Shown in pieces: positions 1-43,976 of a stretch of DNA of 64,000 nt (the stretch's first letter is position 1; each line of letters starts with the position of its first letter). The translations under genes and the position numbers were made by a program. The stretch lies in assembly GCA_000004985.1 (NCBI GenBank), contig GG738889.1; one strand, written 5' to 3'. The notes under the pieces are model-generated. The model was not told where the DNA came from. It was given only the letters and a program-made list of their open reading frames with translations, and ran no database searches. Source of the stretch: Naegleria gruberi. Its lineage: Eukaryota.

Positions 1-398
1 ATAACATGAAGGCTGAGTTTCTGCAGAAGGGTCACGGAAGGGTTATGGATGTCACTGACGCCAAGGACTTCTTCAATCATGTTAAGGATAACAAATTCTG
101 TGTAGTTTTATTCACTCGTCCAAGCAATGAATACTGTGATATTGTGTTGAGCCATTTGCAAAAGATTGCCCAAAAGCACTTGGAAACCTTATTCATTAAA
201 GTAGATGGTGAAAAGTGTCCAATCGTTGTGGAACATTTACAAATCTGGATGATGCCAACTGTTGTTTGTATTAAGAATGGAAGAACTGATAACTCGATAG
301 TGGGCTTGGATGAATTAGGAGGATCCAATTTCACAACACCAACTCTTAGAAAGATGTTATTAGGTTTTGGTGTTATCGAAAGAGAAGAAGACGAATAA
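1..398 (+). CDS. TXNDC9: Thioredoxin-domain protein 9 / phosducin-like protein 3 (TXNDC9/Plp1 family). It is 5'-partial; the ORF runs off the window start.
   Basis: The ORF is open to base 1. The thioredoxin-like block 'HLETLFIKVDGEKCPIVVEHLQIWMMPTVVCIKNGRTDNSIVGLDELGG..FTT' closely matches the conserved TXNDC9/PhLP3 C-terminal region, and the acidic tail EREEDE is typical. Confidence 0.75.
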   Translation, partial: NMKAEFLQKGHGRVMDVTDAKDFFNHVKDNKFCVVLFTRPSNEYCDIVLSHLQKIAQKHLETLFIKVDGEKCPIVVEHLQIWMMPTVVCIKNGRTDNSIVGLDELGGSNFTTPTLRKMLLGFGVIEREEDE

Positions 399-571: not shown

Positions 572-1003
572 TCAATTGTGTTTGAATTTTTGAAAAGCTC
601 TCCAATTCAAATAGATTGCCAAAATTACAACAGGAATAGTCATTGGTAACACTAATTTCCAATATTCATCCTCATAGAACCACCATTTCAATAGAGATAA
701 TAAAGAATTTACATTACTATCATCATTATGTCCAATTAGTATCGGAATGGCACTTGGAAAAATCAAATTCAAATAACTCATCCAAAAGAATACGAGTAAA
801 ATCAGTGGGATAACAATCAGCAGCAATCCGTACAATATTAATTCATATTTTGTTAAATCTTTTCCCTTTCCAATATCTTTAAAATTGGTTTTATAATGTT
901 TCCGAAAATTGCCATAATCAAAACTTCCCGATCGTGCTCTAAAGTATCGGGATTCAATATTTTGAAGTGATGATGAAGATTCCATGGATGATGGTGCTGA
1001 CAT
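572..1003 (-). CDS. Small two-TM membrane protein, possibly a PIG-P (GPI-GlcNAc transferase subunit P)-like protein.
   Basis: 143-aa ORF with two hydrophobic helices (YELILYGLLLIVIPLILLVFFW and EYWKLVLPMTIPVVILAIYLNW). Their spacing and the Y/W-rich loop resemble PIG-P/Gpi19. This is recalled similarity only. Confidence 0.3.
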   Translation of the reverse strand: MSAPSSMESSSSLQNIESRYFRARSGSFDYGNFRKHYKTNFKDIGKGKDLTKYELILYGLLLIVIPLILLVFFWMSYLNLIFPSAIPILIGHNDDSNVNSLLSLLKWWFYEDEYWKLVLPMTIPVVILAIYLNWRAFQKFKHN

Positions 1004-1110: not shown

Positions 1111-2625
1111 CTACTTTTGTTGCTCACTGTCCTTGTATAATTGATAGCCAGCAGAAGCTCCTGTTTTAGCAGCACTGAATGCTCCTTTTCCAATTGCTAA
1201 GAATCCTTTAGCAACCTTCTTTTGCATGTCCTTGTCATTGGCAGCTTTATGAATTGCGTTACCAACAGCTTTTTGGACTTTTTCATTACCTGCAGTGTTT
1301 GCAATTGCATTACCGATACCACTTTGAACTGTCTTGTTGGTAGCAAGAGTTTGGATCAACACATTATCAGTATTTGATGCAATTGTTGTTCCAATTGTGG
1401 ATTGAACTTTTTCATTTTTGGCAGCATTTGACACTCCAGAACCAACTTTTCTTTGGACTTGCTCATTTTGTGCCAAATTTCCAACTTGTCTTCCAACATA
1501 TTCTTGAACTTGATCGTTATTGGCAACTCTTTCCAATCCATTATTATAAGCATTTTGAACATAATTTCCTGATTGAGTTGATACTTGATATTGTGGCTGT
1601 TGCTGTTGTTGATGTTGTTGTTGATATTGTTGTTGATAATGTTGTTGGAATGATCGATATTGTGGTGGTACAGAATAGTTTGGTTCATAATTTTGATAAG
1701 TGGTAGGTTGTGGATAAATTGGTTGAGATGGTTGTTGTGAAATTTTTGGTGGTTGTTGATATATTGGTTGTGATTGTGGTTGATAGGAAGGATAATTTCC
1801 TTGATACATTGGTTGTTGATATTGTTGTTGAGAAAAGTTCGAACTAATTTGTTGTTTCATCATTCTAGCTTGTTTTGGACTAATTAAATGGTAGACACTG
1901 TTTGGAGTATTTGGAGATTCATGTTCAATTATTCCAGGAAGTAATCTGACATAGTGAATTGTTCTAGAATTGTTTTTTGAGCGTTGTGCAATCATGGTTG
2001 GAGTTTTGTAAAGAGTATTTGGATCTTTACATCTGACTGCAACTGAAAATCTCTTATTTAAATCTTTTGCAGAAACTGGTCTAGGTAATTTTTCAAGTGT
2101 ACTTGTTGTTTCATGAACTGGCATAATTGGTTGAATGACAGATTTTCTTCTATCAGAATCATTTTTTGGAGAAGATGAAGCAGAGTTGGATGTTGGAATT
2201 TGAAAAGTAACAGGTTTAACTGGCTTACTTGTTGGTTGTGGAATCACAGGACTTGACACTTCATATAATTCAGACAGTTGACCTCTCAATTTTTCAATTT
2301 CTTGTTTAACTAGATCACACTTTTGAAAATTATAATCATATTCTGTTTTAGTCTTTTCAAAATCTTCAGCTTCTTCATCAAAATCAGCATGGGTTGGTAT
2401 TTTCTTTACAACAAGAATTAAATATTGTATCAATGCCTTGTACATTCCTTCTAAATCTTGTGATTCTCTGAATAGTTTAGCTTCCTTTAGTAAATTCTTT
2501 GCCGTTTCAAAGTAAATTTCCAATGGAGTATCATCATCAATTTCAATCATTTGTTCAATGGCTGCTTTATTCAAATCCTCGAGGGATGAATAGAGCAATC
2601 GTTGATTGGTAGGTGTATTAGACAT
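1111..2625 (-). CDS. Protein with a USP8-dimerisation/MIT-like N-terminal helical domain, a Q/Y/P-rich prion-like middle and C-terminal 17-residue tandem repeats. No catalytic domain is present.
   Basis: 504-aa ORF. The N-terminus '..AKLFRESQDLEGMYKALIQYLILVVKKIPTHADFD' resembles the USP8/AMSH N-terminal dimerisation domain. Residues ~255-340 are QQYQQP/YQ rich. Residues ~355-480 show repeats 'NEKVQxxVGxxxxNxAx' (LEA/CsbD-like). Confidence 0.6.
   Translation of the reverse strand: MSNTPTNQRLLYSSLEDLNKAAIEQMIEIDDDTPLEIYFETAKNLLKEAKLFRESQDLEGMYKALIQYLILVVKKIPTHADFDEEAEDFEKTKTEYDYNFQKCDLVKQEIEKLRGQLSELYEVSSPVIPQPTSKPVKPVTFQIPTSNSASSSPKNDSDRRKSVIQPIMPVHETTSTLEKLPRPVSAKDLNKRFSVAVRCKDPNTLYKTPTMIAQRSKNNSRTIHYVRLLPGIIEHESPNTPNSVYHLISPKQARMMKQQISSNFSQQQYQQPMYQGNYPSYQPQSQPIYQQPPKISQQPSQPIYPQPTTYQNYEPNYSVPPQYRSFQQHYQQQYQQQHQQQQQPQYQVSTQSGNYVQNAYNNGLERVANNDQVQEYVGRQVGNLAQNEQVQRKVGSGVSNAAKNEKVQSTIGTTIASNTDNVLIQTLATNKTVQSGIGNAIANTAGNEKVQKAVGNAIHKAANDKDMQKKVAKGFLAIGKGAFSAAKTGASAGYQLYKDSEQQK
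1188..1563 (-). repeat. In-frame tandem 51-bp coding repeats (17-aa units, about 6 copies) inside CDS 1111..2625.
   Basis: Protein-level periodicity: NDQVQEYVGRQVGNLAQ / NEQVQRKVGSGVSNAAK / NEKVQSTIGTTIASNTD / NEKVQKAVGNAIHKAAN. DNA shows recurring 'aatgaaaaagtccaaa'-type units on the minus strand. Confidence 0.6.
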
Positions 2626-3220: not shown

Positions 3221-4393
3221 TTATTGAAGGGAAGAATTGATAATTTTCCAAATTTGATCTCTCTTATCGAAATCTCTTTCAATTCCCATAAAGTTTGTTA
3301 TCAAATCACCGTGGAAGAATTGCTCCAATGGATGAAGTTGAATGACAGAGTTTGGACACAGTGCAGATAATTCCTGATGGAAAACTTGAGATTGAATCCA
3401 TGGACATGTTACATCCTTTTTTCCATGAGCAATTGAAGTGGATGGCCATTTACTGACAGATTCTGGATTGGCCACATTATTCGAACGAATGATTAAGGTT
3501 GGTGAAAAGAGAGGGAATCTATGAGTGCCTTTACAAATCTTCCACATTGGTGAAATATCATGAACCTTTCTTGTCTTTTCGTATTCGTAGTGAGTGGCCA
3601 TATCATAAACTCCACAAAGGAGAACTAATTTTTTAACTTGTTCAAGTTTCCAATTCGTCTTTTCAAAATTGAAATTATTGTAAATCTTATTAAGTGAAAT
3701 GAGTGAAAATAAATGAGCTCCAGCACTGTGTCCAACAAGAATAATTTCTGGATTATCCATTTTTTCATTCACACGTTCAATAACATAATTAACACCCCTA
3801 TCTACATCCTCAATCATTTCCTCCAAATGAACTTGTGGAAATAAACTATAATTCAAATTATAACATGCATGATTCTTTTGTCCAGATACGAAACTAGCAA
3901 ATCGATGATACAAATCAGCAGATCCACTATGCCACGTTCCACCATGCAAGAATATATAAACTCTATTACTTTGATCTGGTTTAAATGGAATATACTCATG
4001 CACAGTTTGTCTCCTTCTCTGATTGGCATATCTAATTCCATAATTCAAATAGAAATTCTTCTCATGATCCTTTCCATAGAGAAATCTCTTTAATTTTCTC
4101 ACCACTTGTCCAAAACCTTTCAATAGCCAATATTTCAATCGATTTTTCTTTTCATCATGATCATGATATTCATCAATATGGGAAATTAAATTGAGTTCAT
4201 TCCTCAAAAACCACGGAATGTGCATCACTTGATACCAAACAATGTCCAGCAAAACAAGACCCTCACAAAACTTTTGATTGAACCATCCTTTCCATGTTGA
4301 AGATGGAGAAGAAGAGGATACAGATGAATTGCTTGGTTGTGAAGAGGACATTTTTTTTGTGTTTTTTTTGCAACTCCGATATTCAGATTGCAT
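3221..4393 (-). CDS. Alpha/beta-hydrolase fold-3 esterase (isoprenylcysteine methylesterase / kynurenine formamidase-like) with an N-terminal hydrophobic segment.
   Basis: Oxyanion-hole motif 'FLHGGTWHSGS' and nucleophile elbow 'VGHSAGAHL' (GxSxG) are present, with a downstream His-containing block 'IAHGKKD'. This architecture matches the Abhydrolase_3 family (AFMID / ICME). Confidence 0.7.
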   Translation of the reverse strand: MQSEYRSCKKNTKKMSSSQPSNSSVSSSSPSSTWKGWFNQKFCEGLVLLDIVWYQVMHIPWFLRNELNLISHIDEYHDHDEKKNRLKYWLLKGFGQVVRKLKRFLYGKDHEKNFYLNYGIRYANQRRRQTVHEYIPFKPDQSNRVYIFLHGGTWHSGSADLYHRFASFVSGQKNHACYNLNYSLFPQVHLEEMIEDVDRGVNYVIERVNEKMDNPEIILVGHSAGAHLFSLISLNKIYNNFNFEKTNWKLEQVKKLVLLCGVYDMATHYEYEKTRKVHDISPMWKICKGTHRFPLFSPTLIIRSNNVANPESVSKWPSTSIAHGKKDVTCPWIQSQVFHQELSALCPNSVIQLHPLEQFFHGDLITNFMGIERDFDKRDQIWKIINSSLQ

Positions 4394-4855: not shown

Positions 4856-6480
4856 ATGTCTTCAATAGAATTTGATTCATTGACAAGTGGAAAGTCAGTA
4901 TTAGAAAGAGCCAAATATATTCCAATTCGTTTGACATTTGAGGAGAGAAAGAAATTGAGATTGTTGGAAGCTACTTTGACTGTTAGTGAATATACTGATA
5001 AAATTGATACTATTAGAACATTTGGAAAGTTGAAGAGAATTAAAGAACAATGTGAGGAAATTTGTGCAATTTTGTGTGGTTTGATGGTTGCTGCTGATTA
5101 TCAAAAAGGTCAAGAATTGATCGCCAATAAGAACTTTCAAGATAATGAAGAATTTTTCCAAGATGTGTAAGTGTTCAATATTTGTAATGTGACAAGTCAA
5201 CTTTGTGAATAGATTTGAAATTGGAAGACGTTACAAGATTATGAATCCTGAAAAGATGAGAGGAACCTATGGTAAACTCTGTTATATTATTCAAGACAGT
5301 CAACAACCTGAAGTTCAAGAAATGTTAGGATTTAAACTTGATAGACCTGTCAAGACTGTTCATTGGTTCTTGGAACAACATGATGCTCTTGAAATTCTTG
5401 AGGATAAAGATATTGACACTGCCACAAATGAAATTTTTGCAAATGGAAAGACAAGAATGCAAGTTGAAGAAGAAATTAAAATGAAGGAAAAGGCAGCCAA
5501 GAGAATTTGTAAAGTTTACTCTGAGTCATGTGAAATGGAAGAAGAAGATATTGAAAAATGTCTTTACTCAATTGGTGATAGTAGTGCATATCTTAGACAA
5601 GCCGTATATCCAGTTGAAACCATCCTCTCCTTCTTGCTGAATAATTTCAAGCGTGATGATTATGAAGATGGTCACTCATTGGCTATTATGGCAGGCCATG
5701 AAGGTGCTCGTTTATCTCACAATCATGCCATTCAATTTGATTTCGTCTATCAAACTCTTACATTGTGGAAAAATGTTGGAAGAGATATGTTTGAATTGTG
5801 GTTCTTAGCTGAAAGAGATTTGTTCTCATCTACACATACCTATTCCTTAAGAAATACTGGTCAAGGTCTCAACAGAGTTCAATACTGTCCAAATGTTAGA
5901 AGAGCAATGGAAAAGTTGTTATCTCAAACACAGAATAGCACCTCTTCTTGGGTAGGAAGTTCAGTTATTCACTTGGGTGATGATGCTGTTCCTAACAGTT
6001 TAATGTTTATTGACAAGTATACTCAAATTTCAAGAATTTTGAATGTATGTATTTTCACTTATTATTTACAAACTTTTGAATTAGCCAATCATTCAAACAA
6101 TTACAGAAATTGATAACTATATGATTAAGGATCAAAACTTGAAAGAATATATCAATACTACATTTGGAGGTCCAGAGGAAGCAAAGATGACAATTTTGAT
6201 CGATCTTTTTAGACATGGATTTGACGGGTAAGTTATGTGGTTTTCATAATTACTAATTTGTTTCATTATTAAGATCGGGTGCTGATAACTTTTTCATGGC
6301 TGGCTCTTGTATAGATGGTAGATTGACAAGTGCTTGGAATTTCTGTTCAAAGGTTAGTATCTTTCTAATTTCTCGTATTCTTATTCAAAATTATCTTAGA
6401 TCAATAAGAAGAATTATTTCCCTCTCTTCCTTTTGGGAGGCTTCATTGGTTTCGATGGTGGTTCAGGTTTTGACAGATAA
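4856..6480 (+). CDS. Conserved eukaryotic protein of unknown function with five exons.
   Basis: Exons 4856..5166, 5213..6044, 6085..6227, 6274..6352 and 6400..6480. The introns are 46, 40, 46 and 47 bp, all GT..AG (gtaagt/gtatgt/gttagt donors). Splicing joins three separate ORF-track ORFs in frame; the 5205 ORF 'M' is a GTG, not a start. No recognisable catalytic motif. Confidence 0.6.
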
Positions 6481-40893: not shown

Positions 40894-40966
40894 CTCCCCC
40901 TGGTGGGCTCGAACCACCGACCTGCAGATTAACAGTCTGACGCTCTACCGACTGAGCTAAGGGGGA
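40894..40966 (-). tRNA. tRNA-Asn (anticodon GUU).
   Basis: Minus-strand sequence TCCCCCTTAGCTCAGTCGGTAGAGCGTCAGACTGTTAATCTGCAGGTCGGTGGTTCGAGCCCACCAGGGGGAG folds into a cloverleaf. It has a 7-bp acceptor, a GCTC/GAGC D-stem, anticodon loop CUGUUAA, T-arm GGTGG-TTCGAGC-CCACC and discriminator G. A T-run lies shortly downstream. Confidence 0.85.
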
Positions 40967-41372
40967 TTACGTCATCTTTGTAAATTTAAAATTAATGAAG
41001 CTGATTACTCATTATTGAGTTAAAACCAGGAGATGCTTTTGTACCAGTATCCTTCCATCAAACAACTCTTATCTAAAATCTTCAATATAAATTTCTTCAG
41101 GTGTAAAATCTATCGGGCCAAACAGACATTATTGGGACTCGTGTTCATCATGCTCAAAATAACATCATAATAACGACAAGATGCTAAGTTTATTCAGAAC
41201 ACAAAACTTCATGGCAAGGTAATAATAATTTGTGTTAATTATTTTTTTAAAGACGTCAGCTTGTGTGGTTTTTAGCTGTGCTAGTCTGGTGACACAACTT
41301 TCATTGTAAAAAATCAAGTACCTACTCAACTACTCGCAGCGTTAAAAATTCTTTGAAAAAAAACATCGCAAA

Positions 41373-41672
41373 ATGTCTGACGCCCTCACATACGCTACTC
41401 TTTTGTTGGTTGATGCTCAAAAGGATATCACCTCATCAAACATCCTCGCTGTCACCAAGGCTGCTGGTTTGGATGTCAACAAGGCTTCCGCTGAAATTTT
41501 CGCCAAATATGCTACTCCAGCTATGATTGAAGGTTTGATCACCAAGTTGACTGCTGTCGGTGGTGGTGTTGCTTCATCTGCTCCAGTTGCTTCTGCCGCT
41601 GCTGTTGTTGAAGAAAAGAAGGAAGAACCAGAAGAAGAAGAAGAAGAAATGGGCTTCGGTGGTCTCTTCTAA
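41373..41672 (+). CDS. RPLP1: 60S acidic ribosomal stalk protein P1.
   Basis: 99 aa. 'ALTYATLLLVDAQ..ASAEIFAKYA..' is followed by an Ala/Gly-rich hinge and the stalk C-terminus 'EEKKEEPEEEEEEMGFGGLF'. Confidence 0.85.
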   Translation: MSDALTYATLLLVDAQKDITSSNILAVTKAAGLDVNKASAEIFAKYATPAMIEGLITKLTAVGGGVASSAPVASAAAVVEEKKEEPEEEEEEMGFGGLF

Positions 41673-41966
41673 ATCTACTCTATCCTAAAATAAAAAAAAA
41701 TATAAATATATAATTTATTCTTTTATTTGCTGATGAAGATGAATTATTTGATATAGTAAGCTTAGGAAGATTTGCATATTTCCTCTGACTTCAATAGAAC
41801 TTTGCAAGATCGTTATTGTTACCCTTGCCTTTTCCTACAAAATTCAAGCAAAAACTCAACGAAAGGTTTGCAGTCATAACAAAGCAATGTTGATTTCGAC
41901 TCGATTTTCTGGTTTATAATCATAATAGGTTTGTTATAATACCAATATTAAAATTCATCCACGTAA

Positions 41967-42055
41967 GGCGGCTTAGCACAGTGGTAGTGCATCAGTCTTG
42001 TAGGCAGAAATGCTGAGATAACTGAGGGTCGAGGGTTCAATTCCCTCAGTCGCCT
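41967..42055 (+). tRNA. Intron-containing tRNA, most likely tRNA-Thr (anticodon UGU), with a 17-nt intron after position 37.
   Basis: Acceptor GGCGGCT/AGTCGCC (one G-U pair), D-arm GCAC-AGTGGTA-GTGC, anticodon stem TCAGT..ACTGA enclosing CTTGTA[GGCAGAAATGCTGAGAT]A, and T-arm GAGGG-TTCAATT-CCCTC. A T5 Pol III terminator follows at 42055..42059. Confidence 0.7.
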
Positions 42056-42059
42056 TTTT
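42055..42059 (+). terminator. RNA polymerase III oligo-T terminator for the intron-containing tRNA.
   Basis: TTTTT immediately 3' of the acceptor stem/discriminator. Confidence 0.6.
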
Positions 42060-42515
42060 ATTATTATTATTGGTTTCAATAAATGCTGAATGCTGTAACT
42101 GATTAATTTCTGAGAATATTTATTATTCTGATGAAAACTTGATAAGAAAATATATTAAGGTTGCCATAGTATCTGAGATTAGGTCACTCGATTCTCCGAA
42201 AAAATTTTACTCATTCAAATTCCATCCTAGCAAGCCTGAAAACGAGGTGTGCAACGATGTGATAACGAAAAAACGATTTTAGAACCCTTAGAGAGGCTTA
42301 TAAAAGTCACATTGGAGAAGAGCGCTACCAGAAACTACTTTCTCAAACAACAAGAGACAATGGAATACATGGCCATGATTGAAAATTTTGCAAACATGCA
42401 TAAGAAAGCTTATTGAATGAAGATATTGTTTAAGGCAAACTCGTTCACTAATTCACTAACTTTCGAATTGATTCAATAAGACGTTTTTTTAATATATTTA
42501 TCTAAATAATTTATT

Positions 42516-43976
42516 TTAAATTTCCATTTCATCGGCCATAATATCTTGGTCAGTATAGGTTTCGTCATCCTTCTTGACTGTAAAGTTTGGAGCGACTCTA
42601 CATCTCTCCATTTTAGTTCCAGCCTCAATAACAGATCCAGAGCTAATCACACAATCCTTCAAATGAACCTTATCTTCAATAATTACGTTACCCATAATGA
42701 CTGAATTATCAATTAAAACTCCACTTCCAAGACTACAATTCTTTCCAATATTACTCTTCTTGATGGTTGGTTTGGATACCTTCTTAGTGACAGATAATCC
42801 TTCTCCAATAACACAATCAGGTCCTAACAAAACAAGATCAGCTGGTGGTGTGACATGTGTACTTTGAACCATTTCACTATAAAAATCAATATTATTCTTT
42901 CTTGCAAGCTAAAATTATTGTGAAATAATTACAATAAATTATTCAAAATAACTTACCTCTCTATTGACATGTAAATAAGAAGAAACATCGTTACATCTCT
43001 TACAAAAAACTCCTTGTCTTGTTGGGGTCTTTGCGGCTGTGGTGGTGGTAGTTGGTTTATCTTCGTGTGGAGGAACAACATGGGCAAAAACTCGAATCAC
43101 ATCACTGAGTTCAGATTCAGATGTACTCATTCTATAAGCTTCTGATAATGGGAATGGCGTAACAACAGTGGAGAGGACAGGATCTAACTTATCGGAAGAA
43201 ACTTTTTGTGAGTCAATCAAGAATGGAACCAAATCAGACTTGATAGAGTGAATATCAGGTTTTTGAACCAATAAATCAATGACCCACTTTGAAAAGATGT
43301 ATAAATGTGAATCTTTGAGGAATTTGGAAATTGAAAAGTTTGACCATCTCTTCAAGAATGAGCGTGGAATTGATAAATGTTCTTCGGAACCATCATCTGC
43401 ATCATCCGAGTCAATAATTCTATTCATAATTACACGTGATGGCTTCTTTGATAATAAATCTCTTCTCTTCTTTGTTGGTTCACCAACAATTTCTCTCTTA
43501 TAATTTGTCAATGCAAAATAATCGGATTTATCCTCTTTAGAATTAATATTTGATTCATCCTTCAAAAGGAGAGTAAGTGATGAATTATGTTGTCTATGAA
43601 TATCATAAACATTAACCAAAGGAACATCAGTAAATGTATCAACACTCATCACAACAAAATTTGTATAAATAGAATCATGAATTTGTCGTAAAGCTTCAGC
43701 ACTTTCGCAATCCTTGTTGTCCAAAGTTTTAATATCAATTTTTAATTTCCCTGGATATTCCTCGATGGCTTGTTCAATAATCTTTTGTTGTCCAGCTTTA
43801 ACAACAACAATAACATCCTTCAATCCATTCCTCTCCAAATAAGACAATGAATAGTGAATCATTGGATGATTAGCAATCGGCAGTGTTGCCTTTGGTGAGT
43901 GGTCTGAAGCGAGAGGATACAGTCTCAATCCATCTCCTCCAGCCAACAATACGGCTTGCAATTCGGTTTGCATCAT
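42516..43976 (-). CDS. EIF2B3: Translation initiation factor eIF2B subunit gamma. Two exons.
   Basis: Exons 42948..43976 and 42516..42899 with a 48-bp intron 42900..42947 (gtaagt..ttttag). N-terminal nucleotidyltransferase fold 'LQAVLLAGGDGLRLYPLASDHSPKATLPIANHPMIHYSLSYLERNGLKDVIVVV'. C-terminal left-handed beta-helix hexapeptides ending '..MEI' as in EIF2B3. Confidence 0.85.

What the first reader, a model, noticed from the sequence alone, without database searches (positions are those of the whole stretch)
1111..2625. USP8/AMSH-type dimerisation domain protein lacking any deubiquitinase domain, with a prion-like Q/Y/P region and 17-aa tandem repeats
The N-terminal ~115 aa resembles the helical dimerisation/MIT-like domain that normally precedes a rhodanese+USP or JAMM catalytic domain, but here it is followed only by a QQYQQP/YQ-rich low-complexity stretch and six 17-residue amphipathic repeats (NEKVQxxVGxxxxNxAx, LEA/CsbD-like). 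It may be a catalytically dead decoy of ESCRT-associated DUBs or a stress-granule/LEA-like protein, which would be relevant to desiccation tolerance if the host is anhydrobiotic.
Basis: inference. Interest (0 to 1): 0.5.

Follow-up and report, generated by a model that had tools for sequence, protein, structure and literature searches.

The report
Enzyme-less ESCRT adaptor with new tail domain
This Naegleria gruberi gene encodes a protein whose head is the ESCRT-III-binding (MIT-type) domain of the deubiquitinases AMSH and USP8, with no enzyme attached; it ends in a conserved, undescribed helical-repeat domain that other amoebae attach to BAR and EH membrane-trafficking proteins.

Summary
ORF 1111-2625 (-) encodes 504 aa, identical to Naegleria gruberi NAEGRDRAFT_58932. 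Residues 12-122 match Pfam USP8_dimer above its curated cut-off, and an ortholog profile hits the AMSH and USP8 MIT domains in the PDB. Residues 263-353 are Q/P/Y-rich. Residues 370-480 hold six 17-aa repeats plus one 9-aa half repeat (lag-17 z = 7.3). There is no DUB domain and no further exon: orthologs, one from a transcriptome, end at the same C-terminus.

The repeats are not LEA/CsbD-like (no Pfam hit at E <= 10). They form a fixed, almost gap-free ~130-150 aa helical module and are the best-conserved part across distant Heterolobosea. 84 cluster representatives carry it, and it is C-terminal in 45 of 49 long proteins. It is fused to USP8_dimer (16), BAR (8) or EH (1) domains in Heterolobosea and Amoebozoa. 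It has no Pfam family and no solved structural relative.

Best reading: a non-enzymatic ESCRT-III-associated adaptor, comparable in layout to MITD1 or spartin, whose new C-terminal module is a shared targeting or effector domain of amoebal trafficking proteins. The decoy idea is untested. The desiccation idea is unsupported. Moderately interesting, mainly for the new module.

The parts
1111..2625 (-). Complete single-exon CDS, 504 aa plus stop; Naegleria gruberi NAEGRDRAFT_58932
   Evidence: ORF list. 100% identity and coverage to P0001. Orthologs of 491-511 aa are colinear from N- to C-terminus.
2260..2592 (-). Residues 12-122: USP8_dimer / AMSH-type MIT-like helical domain, four predicted helices (15-27, 35-49, 55-75, 89-123)
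   Evidence: Pfam PF08969 at 38.8 bits, above the gathering cut-off of 24.6. PDB hits: AMSH MIT E 1.1e-10 and USP8 E 1.2e-5 with the profile. Helices are from the AF2 model, which is low-confidence at pLDDT 50-67.
1840..2259 (-). Residues 123-262: S/P/K/T-rich, predicted disordered linker with conserved islands
   Evidence: pLDDT below 50. Composition. 50% identity to N. fowleri but 16-18% to distant orthologs. No Pfam hit.
2140..2151 (-). Residues 159-162, RRKS: basophilic-kinase-type consensus inside the block D-x-x-RRK[ST]VIQPI[VM]P, which is conserved in the Naegleria clade
   Evidence: Alignment and regex. Conserved in P0001, P0003 and P0004; RRKT in P0002. That it is a phosphosite is inference only.
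1930..1947 (-). Residues 227-232, R-L-L-P-G-I: a short linear motif R-[PL]-LPG-[ILT], conserved in all 11 members of the ortholog group within an otherwise divergent linker
   Evidence: Motif scan. R227 is invariant in alignment A1. Coordinates checked against the DNA.
1567..1839 (-). Residues 263-353: Q/P/Y/S-rich low-complexity region (Q 36%, P 15%, Y 14%), containing one PPxY (PPQY, residues 320-323, window 1657-1668)
   Evidence: Composition. DNA microsatellite-like repeats at 1585-1647 and 1706-1785. Present in orthologs but variable in sequence, 35-42% identity within Naegleria. PPxY occurs in only 4 of 11 orthologs.
1114..1566 (-). Residues 354-504: conserved C-terminal helical-repeat module with no Pfam family; eight predicted helices
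   Evidence: hmmsearch of 1.84 billion representatives: 84 hits at E <= 1e-3 and 53 at <= 1e-10. 48-sequence alignment A4. AF2 mean pLDDT 80.2, pTM 0.53. 0 Pfam hits. No PDB relative.
1186..1518 (-). Residues 370-480: six 17-aa repeats (starts 370, 387, 404, 430, 447, 464) plus a conserved 9-aa half repeat at 421-429 (N-x-x-V-x-x-L-A-x)
   Evidence: Lag-17 z = 7.3. Stacked repeats and family consensus. Each repeat is a 14-16-residue helix with 1-3-residue breaks between helices.
1120..1233 (-). Residues 465-502: long, Lys-rich amphipathic terminal helix (net charge +4, muH 0.42). It is present in the USP8_dimer-linked subfamily and truncated in most BAR-linked members
   Evidence: Helix. Hydrophobic moment and charge. 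Subfamily difference visible in alignment A4.

Best explanation
The gene encodes a non-enzymatic, ESCRT-III-associated adaptor specific to Heterolobosea.

Shown:
- The N-terminus is a bona fide member of the USP8_dimer/AMSH MIT-type domain family.
- No catalytic domain exists.
- The C-terminus is a conserved, fixed-architecture helical-repeat module. In amoeboid protists (Heterolobosea and Amoebozoa) it is almost always the C-terminal end of proteins whose N-termini are USP8_dimer, BAR or EH domains.

Inferred:
- The MIT-type head docks on the C-terminal MIM tails of polymerised ESCRT-III subunits, as the AMSH and USP8 MIT domains do.
- The disordered linker presents a conserved R-[PL]-LPG-I motif. 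Together with a Q/P/Y-rich low-complexity stretch, it offers sites for partners or multivalent assembly.
- The basic, amphipathic C-terminal module is the common output domain, attaching the complex to a membrane surface or to a shared partner. The protein would then tether or scaffold at ESCRT-III sites rather than remove ubiquitin. In layout this parallels human MITD1 (MIT plus a membrane-binding domain) and spartin (MIT, PPxY, then a C-terminal lipid-droplet-binding domain).
For: Domain identity:
- Pfam USP8_dimer above the gathering score.
- Profile hits to solved AMSH and USP8 MIT domains at E 1.1e-10 and 1.2e-5.
- AMSH and USP8 MIT domains bind many ESCRT-III tails (PMC9477494; AMSH-CHMP3 structure 2XZE summarised in PMC9313428).

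No enzyme:
-, plus identical C-termini in orthologs, including a transcriptome-derived one.

The module is a real, constrained domain:
- It is 50-51% identical between Naegleria and Acrasis/P0005, where the MIT domain is 39% and the linker 16-18%.
- It aligns almost gap-free over six repeats plus the half repeat in 48 sequences.
- AF2 gives pLDDT 80.

Trafficking context:
- Among 57 module-bearing proteins, 16 carry USP8_dimer, 8 carry BAR (best E 1.5e-26) and 1 carries EH (80 bits).
- The module lies within 30 aa of the C-terminus in 45 of 49 proteins of at least 250 aa.

Membrane-surface affinity is plausible:
- Net charge is positive in 40 of 48 modules (mean +4.3; +7 here).
- Helices are amphipathic, muH 0.25-0.57.
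Against: - No experiment or interaction data exist for this protein or the module; literature searches found nothing.
- Only 2 of the 5 AMSH residues that contact CHMP3 are conserved in kind (E104, K107). One is semi-conserved (Y80 to F). Two are charge-reversed (E72 to K, K88 to D/E). The two available alignments differ by a heptad in the last helix (contact residues from PMC9313428). ESCRT-III binding is therefore inferred from family membership, not from a preserved interface.
- The module also occurs on predicted multi-pass membrane proteins (P0027, P0037). There a mere membrane anchor would be redundant, which favours a protein-binding role.
- pTM is 0.53, so the tertiary packing is uncertain.
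Confidence: 0.55

Rival explanations
1. DUB decoy or regulator. The enzyme-less MIT-type head competes with, or directly regulates, genuine MIT-bearing deubiquitinases (AMSH- or Doa4/USP8-type) at ESCRT-III. This would tune cargo deubiquitination and the free-ubiquitin pool, as yeast Rfu1 does by inhibiting Doa4.
For: The head is the same domain family as in AMSH and USP8. A small non-enzymatic Doa4 inhibitor acting at endosomes is established in yeast (PMC7653365, PMC6222566). Two paralogous enzyme-less USP8_dimer+module lineages exist in Naegleria-type amoebae (P0010 against P0001), which suggests a maintained regulatory role.
Against: Nothing in the sequence points to a DUB contact. There is no STAM-binding motif and no YPxL-type Bro1-binding motif. 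The most conserved part is the C-terminal module, which is shared with BAR and EH proteins that have no link to DUBs. I could not establish whether Naegleria encodes AMSH or USP8 orthologs with this head; the search with the N-terminal profile returned nothing. That Rfu1 itself carries a USP8_dimer-like region is my recollection and was not tested.
Confidence: 0.15
2. The C-terminal module is a protein-interaction domain, for example one that binds actin or an endocytic hub, rather than a membrane binder. On this reading it plays the part that SH3 domains play at the C-termini of opisthokont BAR proteins. The protein would link ESCRT-III to that partner.
For: In the BAR-linked proteins the module lies at the C-terminus after a proline-rich linker, the arrangement I recall for SH3 in opisthokont BAR proteins such as amphiphysin and Rvs167. 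It also occurs on predicted membrane proteins, where a lipid anchor is unnecessary. Conserved polar residues (near-invariant N and Q at each helix start) form a regular surface. So far it is found only in amoeboid lineages.
Confidence: 0.2
3. LEA-, CsbD- or hydrophilin-like stress protectant. The 17-aa repeats would be disordered amphipathic segments that fold on drying or on membranes and protect the cell, or the cyst, during desiccation.
For: Repetitive amphipathic helices rich in A, G, K, N and Q. Naegleria forms resistant cysts (general knowledge).
Against: No Pfam LEA, CsbD or other hit at E <= 10. The repeat number and the 9-aa half repeat are fixed across 48 sequences, whereas LEA-type arrays, as I recall, vary in copy number. 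A confident folded prediction. The module is always attached to trafficking domains.
Confidence: 0.05

Closest known systems
AMSH / STAMBP (MIT-type N-terminal domain plus JAMM deubiquitinase)
   Same: The N-terminal domain is homologous: Pfam USP8_dimer, and AMSH MIT 2xze/9le4 is the best PDB hit at E 1.1e-10 with the profile. The predicted helices include a long last helix, like the AMSH 'helical extension' (PMC9313428). The acidic and basic pair corresponding to AMSH E104/K107 is retained.
   Different: No JAMM/MPN domain or motif and no STAM SH3-binding motif. The residues matching the AMSH contacts E72 and K88 are charge-reversed. A Q/Y/P region and a novel helical module take the place of the enzyme.
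USP8 / UBPY and yeast Doa4 (N-terminal MIT-type domain, rhodanese, USP protease)
   Same: The head domain is in the same Pfam family. USP8 2a9u/8y9a is hit at E 1.2e-5.
   Different: No rhodanese or USP domain. It is closer to AMSH than to USP8.
Yeast Rfu1 (regulator of free ubiquitin chains 1; non-enzymatic Doa4 inhibitor at endosomes)
   Same: An enzyme-less protein acting in the ESCRT/DUB circuit (PMC7653365, PMC6222566).
   Different: From memory, Rfu1 is a much smaller protein, without the Q/Y/P region or the repeat module.
Human MITD1 and spartin (MIT-domain adaptors with C-terminal lipid- or membrane-binding domains)
   Same: The layout is the same: an N-terminal ESCRT-III-binding MIT domain, no enzyme activity needed for recruitment, and a C-terminal domain that provides a second attachment. 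Both are listed among human MIT proteins in PMC9477494. Spartin also carries a PPxY motif (general knowledge), and this protein has PPQY at residues 320-323.
   Different: The MIT head belongs to the AMSH/USP8 subfamily. The C-terminal module has no detectable sequence or structural relation to the PLD-like or senescence domains. This is an analogy of architecture only.
LEA proteins / CsbD (repeat-rich hydrophilins)
   Same: Tandem amphipathic helical repeats with many A, G, K, N and Q residues.
   Different: No profile match. Fixed copy number, a predicted folded bundle and a trafficking-protein context.

Membership tests
Pfam PF08969 USP8_dimer (AMSH/USP8 MIT-type N-terminal domain) | Profile HMM score above the curated gathering threshold | tested here: met
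   38.8 bits against 24.6, covering 9-112 of 114 model positions. 16 of 57 relatives carrying the same C-terminal module also match.
Pfam PF08969 USP8_dimer (AMSH/USP8 MIT-type N-terminal domain) | Sequence similarity to solved AMSH and USP8 N-terminal domains | tested here: met
   Single sequence: 2xze_A E 1.1e-4. Profile: AMSH E 1.1e-10, USP8 E 1.2e-5.
ESCRT-III-binding MIT domains (functional class) | Conservation of the AMSH residues that contact the CHMP3 MIM (E72, Y80, K88, E104, K107; PMC9313428) | tested here: inconclusive
   E72 to K74, Y80 to F82, K88 to D88 or E95, E104 to D104 or E111, K107 to K107 or R114. Two are kept, one is semi-conserved and two are reversed. The two alignments differ by seven residues in the last helix.
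ESCRT-III-binding MIT domains (functional class) | Direct binding to ESCRT-III C-terminal tails | not testable with these tools
   Needs binding assays or complex prediction with Naegleria Vps24, Vps2, Did2 and Snf7 tails.
AMSH-family JAMM deubiquitinases | JAB1/MPN domain with the HxHx7Sx2D zinc motif | tested here: not met
   No JAB/MPN Pfam hit and no motif. The protein ends at residue 504, as its orthologs do.
USP-family deubiquitinases (USP8/Doa4) | UCH/USP catalytic domain, plus rhodanese domain | tested here: not met
   No such Pfam hits at E <= 10. The flanking ORFs are thioredoxin, PIG-Y-like and an alpha/beta hydrolase.
LEA / CsbD hydrophilins | Match to any LEA_1-6, CsbD or related Pfam profile | tested here: not met
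   Zero families at E <= 10 for residues 355-504 alone.
[quoted passage not shown] | [P/hydrophobic]-P-X-[P/hydrophobic]-G-[FW]-large; Gly and Phe/Trp are essential (PMC4346919) | tested here: not met
   The conserved motif is R-[PL]-L-P-G-[ILT], with an aliphatic residue where F/W is required. Resemblance only.
New C-terminal helical-repeat module (proposed family, no Pfam entry) | Six N-E-x-V-Q-x-x-V-G-x-x-V-A-x-x-A-x repeats with a 9-aa S-D-N-x-x-V-x-x-L-A insertion after repeat 3 | tested here: met
   The window protein scores 251.5 bits (E 2.2e-70) against the family profile, which was built partly from it. Independent members reach E 1e-51 to 1e-10. Alignment A4.
Prion-like (Q/N-rich) domains | Compositional score by a trained predictor (PLAAC/PAPA) and experimental aggregation | not tested
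   Only composition was measured: Q 36%, P 15%, Y 14%, N 4%. The high proline content argues against an amyloid-type prion domain; this is inference.

The most novel reading that the evidence does not exclude
The C-terminal 17-aa-repeat module is a previously undescribed, autonomous domain of amoeboid eukaryotes (Heterolobosea and Amoebozoa). It serves as a common output domain for several classes of membrane-remodelling proteins: MIT-type ESCRT-III binders, BAR proteins and EH proteins. It would do so by binding one shared target, either a specific membrane surface or the actin/endocytic machinery. On this reading the window's protein is a lineage-specific bridge between ESCRT-III polymers and that target.
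Probability: 0.4. Interest if true: 0.55.

Novelty: new variant of a known kind. Interest (0 to 1): 0.4.

Why it matters
Non-enzymatic MIT-domain adaptors are a known kind of ESCRT-III cofactor, and public databases already label this protein 'USP8 dimerisation domain-containing'. Its head is therefore not news.

The new element is the tail. It is a ~130-150-residue helical-repeat module with no Pfam family and no solved structural relative. It is more conserved than the MIT head across distant Heterolobosea. It recurs at the C-terminus of BAR, EH and MIT-type proteins in two distant supergroups of amoebae.

If it is a common targeting or effector domain, it identifies a lineage-specific piece of endocytic and ESCRT wiring in organisms that include the pathogen Naegleria fowleri, which has a 52% identical ortholog. 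It would also give an experimentally tractable handle on how ESCRT-III cofactors diversify outside animals and fungi.

Tried and rejected
1. PDB profile search with the module. It produced apparently strong WD40 hits (2ymu_A, E 1.7e-14). These are sums of many short 'G-x-IAS-x-SD-x-x-VK' matches that are each insignificant (each i-E-value above 100, zero significant stretches), so I rejected them as an artefact of matching one repeat protein against another.
3. The AFDB50 fold library was not available.
4. The word-indexed protein search with the module profile returned only 2 proteins. With the N-terminal profile it returned none. I therefore could not list Naegleria AMSH or USP8 orthologs or obtain source names for most relatives.
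5. Literature searches for the locus tags and for Naegleria+ESCRT+AMSH found nothing. The 'NF0' term was a poor choice and wasted a search.
6. The Rfu1 papers that describe its domains were not held. Rfu1's domain content therefore rests on memory.
7. ALG-2 ABM-2 reading of the R-P-L-P-G-I motif: rejected as a strict match because the essential F/W is aliphatic here.
8. The full-length AF2 model with 6 sequences was too poor (pLDDT 44.6) for fold searching.
9. tblastn of the module and the head against the window found no second copy.
10. Fetching the contig of P0035 gave no taxonomic information.
Full report
**What is there.** The window is AT-rich (about 33% G+C). The ORF at 1111-2625 on the minus strand is exactly as reported: 504 codons from ATG to stop. 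Its product is 100% identical over its full length to NCBI 'hypothetical protein NAEGRDRAFT_58932 [Naegleria gruberi]', which UniRef labels 'USP8 dimerisation domain-containing'. The host is therefore the heterolobosean amoeboflagellate Naegleria gruberi, not an anhydrobiotic animal. Full-length orthologs of 491-511 aa exist in N. fowleri (52% identity), N. lovaniensis and an environmental sequence. More distant orthologs exist in Acrasis kona and further environmental or transcriptome sequences.

- N-terminal domain. Pfam USP8_dimer (PF08969) matches residues 12-122 at 38.8 bits, above the curated cut-off of 24.6. The single sequence finds the solved AMSH/STAMBP MIT domain at E 1.1e-4. A 14-sequence profile of the domain (A5) finds AMSH at E 1.1e-10 and USP8 at E 1.2e-5.
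- Q/Y/P region. Residues 263-353 are Q 36%, P 15%, Y 14% and S 10%. The only DNA tandem repeats in the gene are the short CAA/CAG-type ones underlying this stretch.
- Repeats. Self-similarity of residues 361-504 peaks at lag 17 (z = 7.3 against 500 shuffles), with peaks at 34 and at 43 = 2x17+9. Stacking gives six 17-mers starting at residues 370, 387, 404, 430, 447 and 464, plus a 9-residue half repeat at 421. The family consensus is N-E-x-V-Q-x-x-V-G-x-x-V-A-x-x-A-x.
- No catalytic domain. There is no other Pfam domain and no JAMM motif. The neighbouring ORFs are a thioredoxin, a PIG-Y-like membrane protein with its own start codon, an alpha/beta hydrolase and a DUF2009-type E2. All orthologs stop at the same conserved ...Y-x-x-Y... 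C-terminus. The Percolomonas homolog P0019 comes from a transcriptome and has the same architecture. There is no missing exon.

The repeat region is not a generic LEA/CsbD-like array. On its own it gives no Pfam hit even at E <= 10.

I searched a profile of the six orthologous C-termini (A2) against 1.84 billion cluster representatives. It found 84 proteins at E <= 1e-3 and 53 at <= 1e-10. An alignment of 48 of them (A4) is almost free of gaps from repeat 1 to repeat 6. Every member has the same number of repeats and the same S-D-N-x-x-V-x-x-L-A half repeat after repeat 3. This is a fixed domain, not an expandable array.

It is also the most conserved part of the protein at long range. Between N. 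gruberi and Acrasis/P0005 the module is 50-51% identical, the MIT-type head 39% and the linker 16-18%. With the 48-sequence alignment, AlphaFold2 predicts eight helices, one per repeat, of 14-16 residues separated by 1-3-residue breaks. Mean pLDDT is 80.2 and pTM 0.53.

**The module's company.** A Pfam scan of 57 module-bearing proteins found USP8_dimer in 16, BAR in 8 (best E 1.5e-26) and EH in 1 (80 bits). GRAM, RME-8_N and COPI_assoc matches were weaker and below their cut-offs. No family covered the module itself. In 45 of 49 proteins of at least 250 aa, the module ends within 30 residues of the C-terminus.

Named sources are Heterolobosea for the USP8_dimer fusions: Naegleria spp., Willaertia magna, Acrasis kona and Percolomonas cosmopolitus. 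For the BAR and other fusions they are Amoebozoa: Mastigella eilhardi, Pelomyxa schiedti, Cavostelium apophysatum, Copromyxa protea and Cavenderia fasciculata DFA_11929. N. lovaniensis also has a shorter paralog, P0010, with USP8_dimer, a proline-rich linker and the module. The module is thus a mobile C-terminal domain of membrane-trafficking proteins in amoeboid protists.

The helices are amphipathic (muH 0.25-0.57). The last one, residues 465-502, is Lys-rich (+4) and amphipathic. Module net charge is positive in 40 of 48 sequences, with a mean of +4.3 and +7 here. The apparently strong WD40 hits in the PDB sequence search are sums of many insignificant short matches and are artefacts.

**The head.** AMSH and USP8 MIT domains bind the C-terminal MIM tails of many ESCRT-III subunits (PMC9477494). 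In the AMSH-CHMP3 structure the contacts are E72, Y80, K88, E104 and K107 (PMC9313428). Mapping these through the alignments gives:

| AMSH residue | Window protein | Verdict |
|---|---|---|
| E72 | K74 | charge reversed |
| Y80 | F82 | semi-conserved |
| K88 | D88 or E95 | charge reversed |
| E104 | D104 or E111 | conserved in kind |
| K107 | K107 or R114 | conserved in kind |

The two alignments differ by one heptad in the last helix. The acidic/basic pair is kept in both, and two other contacts are charge-reversed. Membership of the domain family is solid. Retention of a particular ESCRT-III-binding mode is only inferred.

**The linker.** Apart from the Q/Y/P stretch, it holds a short motif, R-[PL]-L-P-G-[ILT], present in all 11 members of the ortholog group within otherwise unalignable sequence. 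It resembles the ALG-2-binding type-2 motif PXPG[FW] but has an aliphatic residue where F/W is essential (PMC4346919), so it is not a member of that class. A Naegleria-clade block contains RRK[ST]. PPxY occurs in 4 of 11 orthologs. No STAM-binding, clathrin-box or YPxL motif is present.

**Most likely mechanism (confidence about 0.55).** This is a non-enzymatic adaptor.
- The MIT-type head docks on ESCRT-III polymers. This is inferred from family membership.
- The disordered linker offers a conserved linear motif and a multivalent Q/P/Y region. The sequence features are shown; their function is inferred.
- The conserved basic helical module supplies a second attachment, to a membrane surface or to a partner shared with BAR and EH proteins. 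This is inferred from domain co-occurrence, charge and amphipathicity.

In layout this resembles human MITD1 and spartin rather than AMSH.

**Rivals.**
- A DUB decoy or regulator like yeast Rfu1 (PMC7653365), confidence 0.15. It is untested, and I could not establish whether Naegleria has AMSH or USP8 orthologs.
- The module as a protein-hub or actin-binding domain rather than a lipid binder, confidence 0.2. This is favoured by its presence on predicted membrane proteins.
- An LEA-like protectant, confidence 0.05. This is disfavoured.

**Novelty and score.** The head and its lack of an enzyme are already implicit in automated annotation. MIT-only adaptors are a known kind. The C-terminal module, its fixed architecture, its distribution and its fusion partners appear undescribed: there is no Pfam family, no structural relative and no literature found. 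I rate this a new variant of a known kind, with interest 0.4.

Noticed in passing
window 1930-1947 (-), residues 227-232; also P0002-P0009, P0015, P0019: A short linear motif R-[PL]-L-P-G-[ILT] is conserved in all 11 orthologs inside an otherwise unalignable linker. It looks like the ALG-2-binding type-2 motif PXPG[FW] but has an aliphatic residue at the essential aromatic position. Its partner is unknown.
   Followed up: partly
window 2140-2151 (-), residues 159-162: An RRK[ST] basophilic-kinase-type site lies inside a block (D-x-x-RRK[ST]VIQPI[VM]P) conserved only in the Naegleria clade. It may be a regulatory phosphosite. USP8 has a phospho-dependent 14-3-3 site in its linker (from memory).
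   Followed up: no
P0010 (N. lovaniensis C9374_005106) and P0011-P0018: There is a second, shorter paralog lineage (280-400 aa) with USP8_dimer, a proline-rich (LPPPP) linker and the same module, but without the Q/Y/P region or the RPLPGI motif. In several of these (P0011, P0012, P0016) the AMSH E72-equivalent residue is still Glu.
   Followed up: partly
P0036, P0038, P0039, P0041, P0044, P0053, P0062, P0071, P0073 (Amoebozoa): These are BAR-domain proteins with long PxxP/Q-rich linkers that end in the module, where opisthokont BAR proteins such as amphiphysin, as I recall, end in an SH3 domain. Their modules lack the long terminal amphipathic helix seen in the USP8_dimer subfamily.
   Followed up: partly
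P0067 (657 aa; weak hit): An LRR protein with an acidic N-terminal tandem repeat 'EEVQEKMGDEVEDKIK' scored weakly against the module profile. It is probably a chance resemblance between repeats rather than a family member.
   Followed up: no
window 4856-6113 (+): A DUF2009-type non-canonical E2 ubiquitin-conjugating enzyme gene is split into two ORFs (4856-5170 and 5205-6113) that match consecutive parts of the Pfam model (positions 1-87 and 88-365). This implies a short intron of about 34 nt at roughly 5171-5204.
   Followed up: partly
window 572-1003 (-), 6-398 (+), 3221-4393 (-): The immediate neighbours are a PIG-Y-like small membrane protein (24.6 bits, just below its cut-off of 25), a thioredoxin-fold protein and a BD-FAE/Abhydrolase_3 alpha/beta hydrolase. 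None is functionally linked to the finding.
   Followed up: yes
window 40894-43285: A cluster of three tRNA genes: Asn-GTT (-), Thr-TGT (+; 91 nt, so probably intron-containing) and Val-CAC (-).
   Followed up: no
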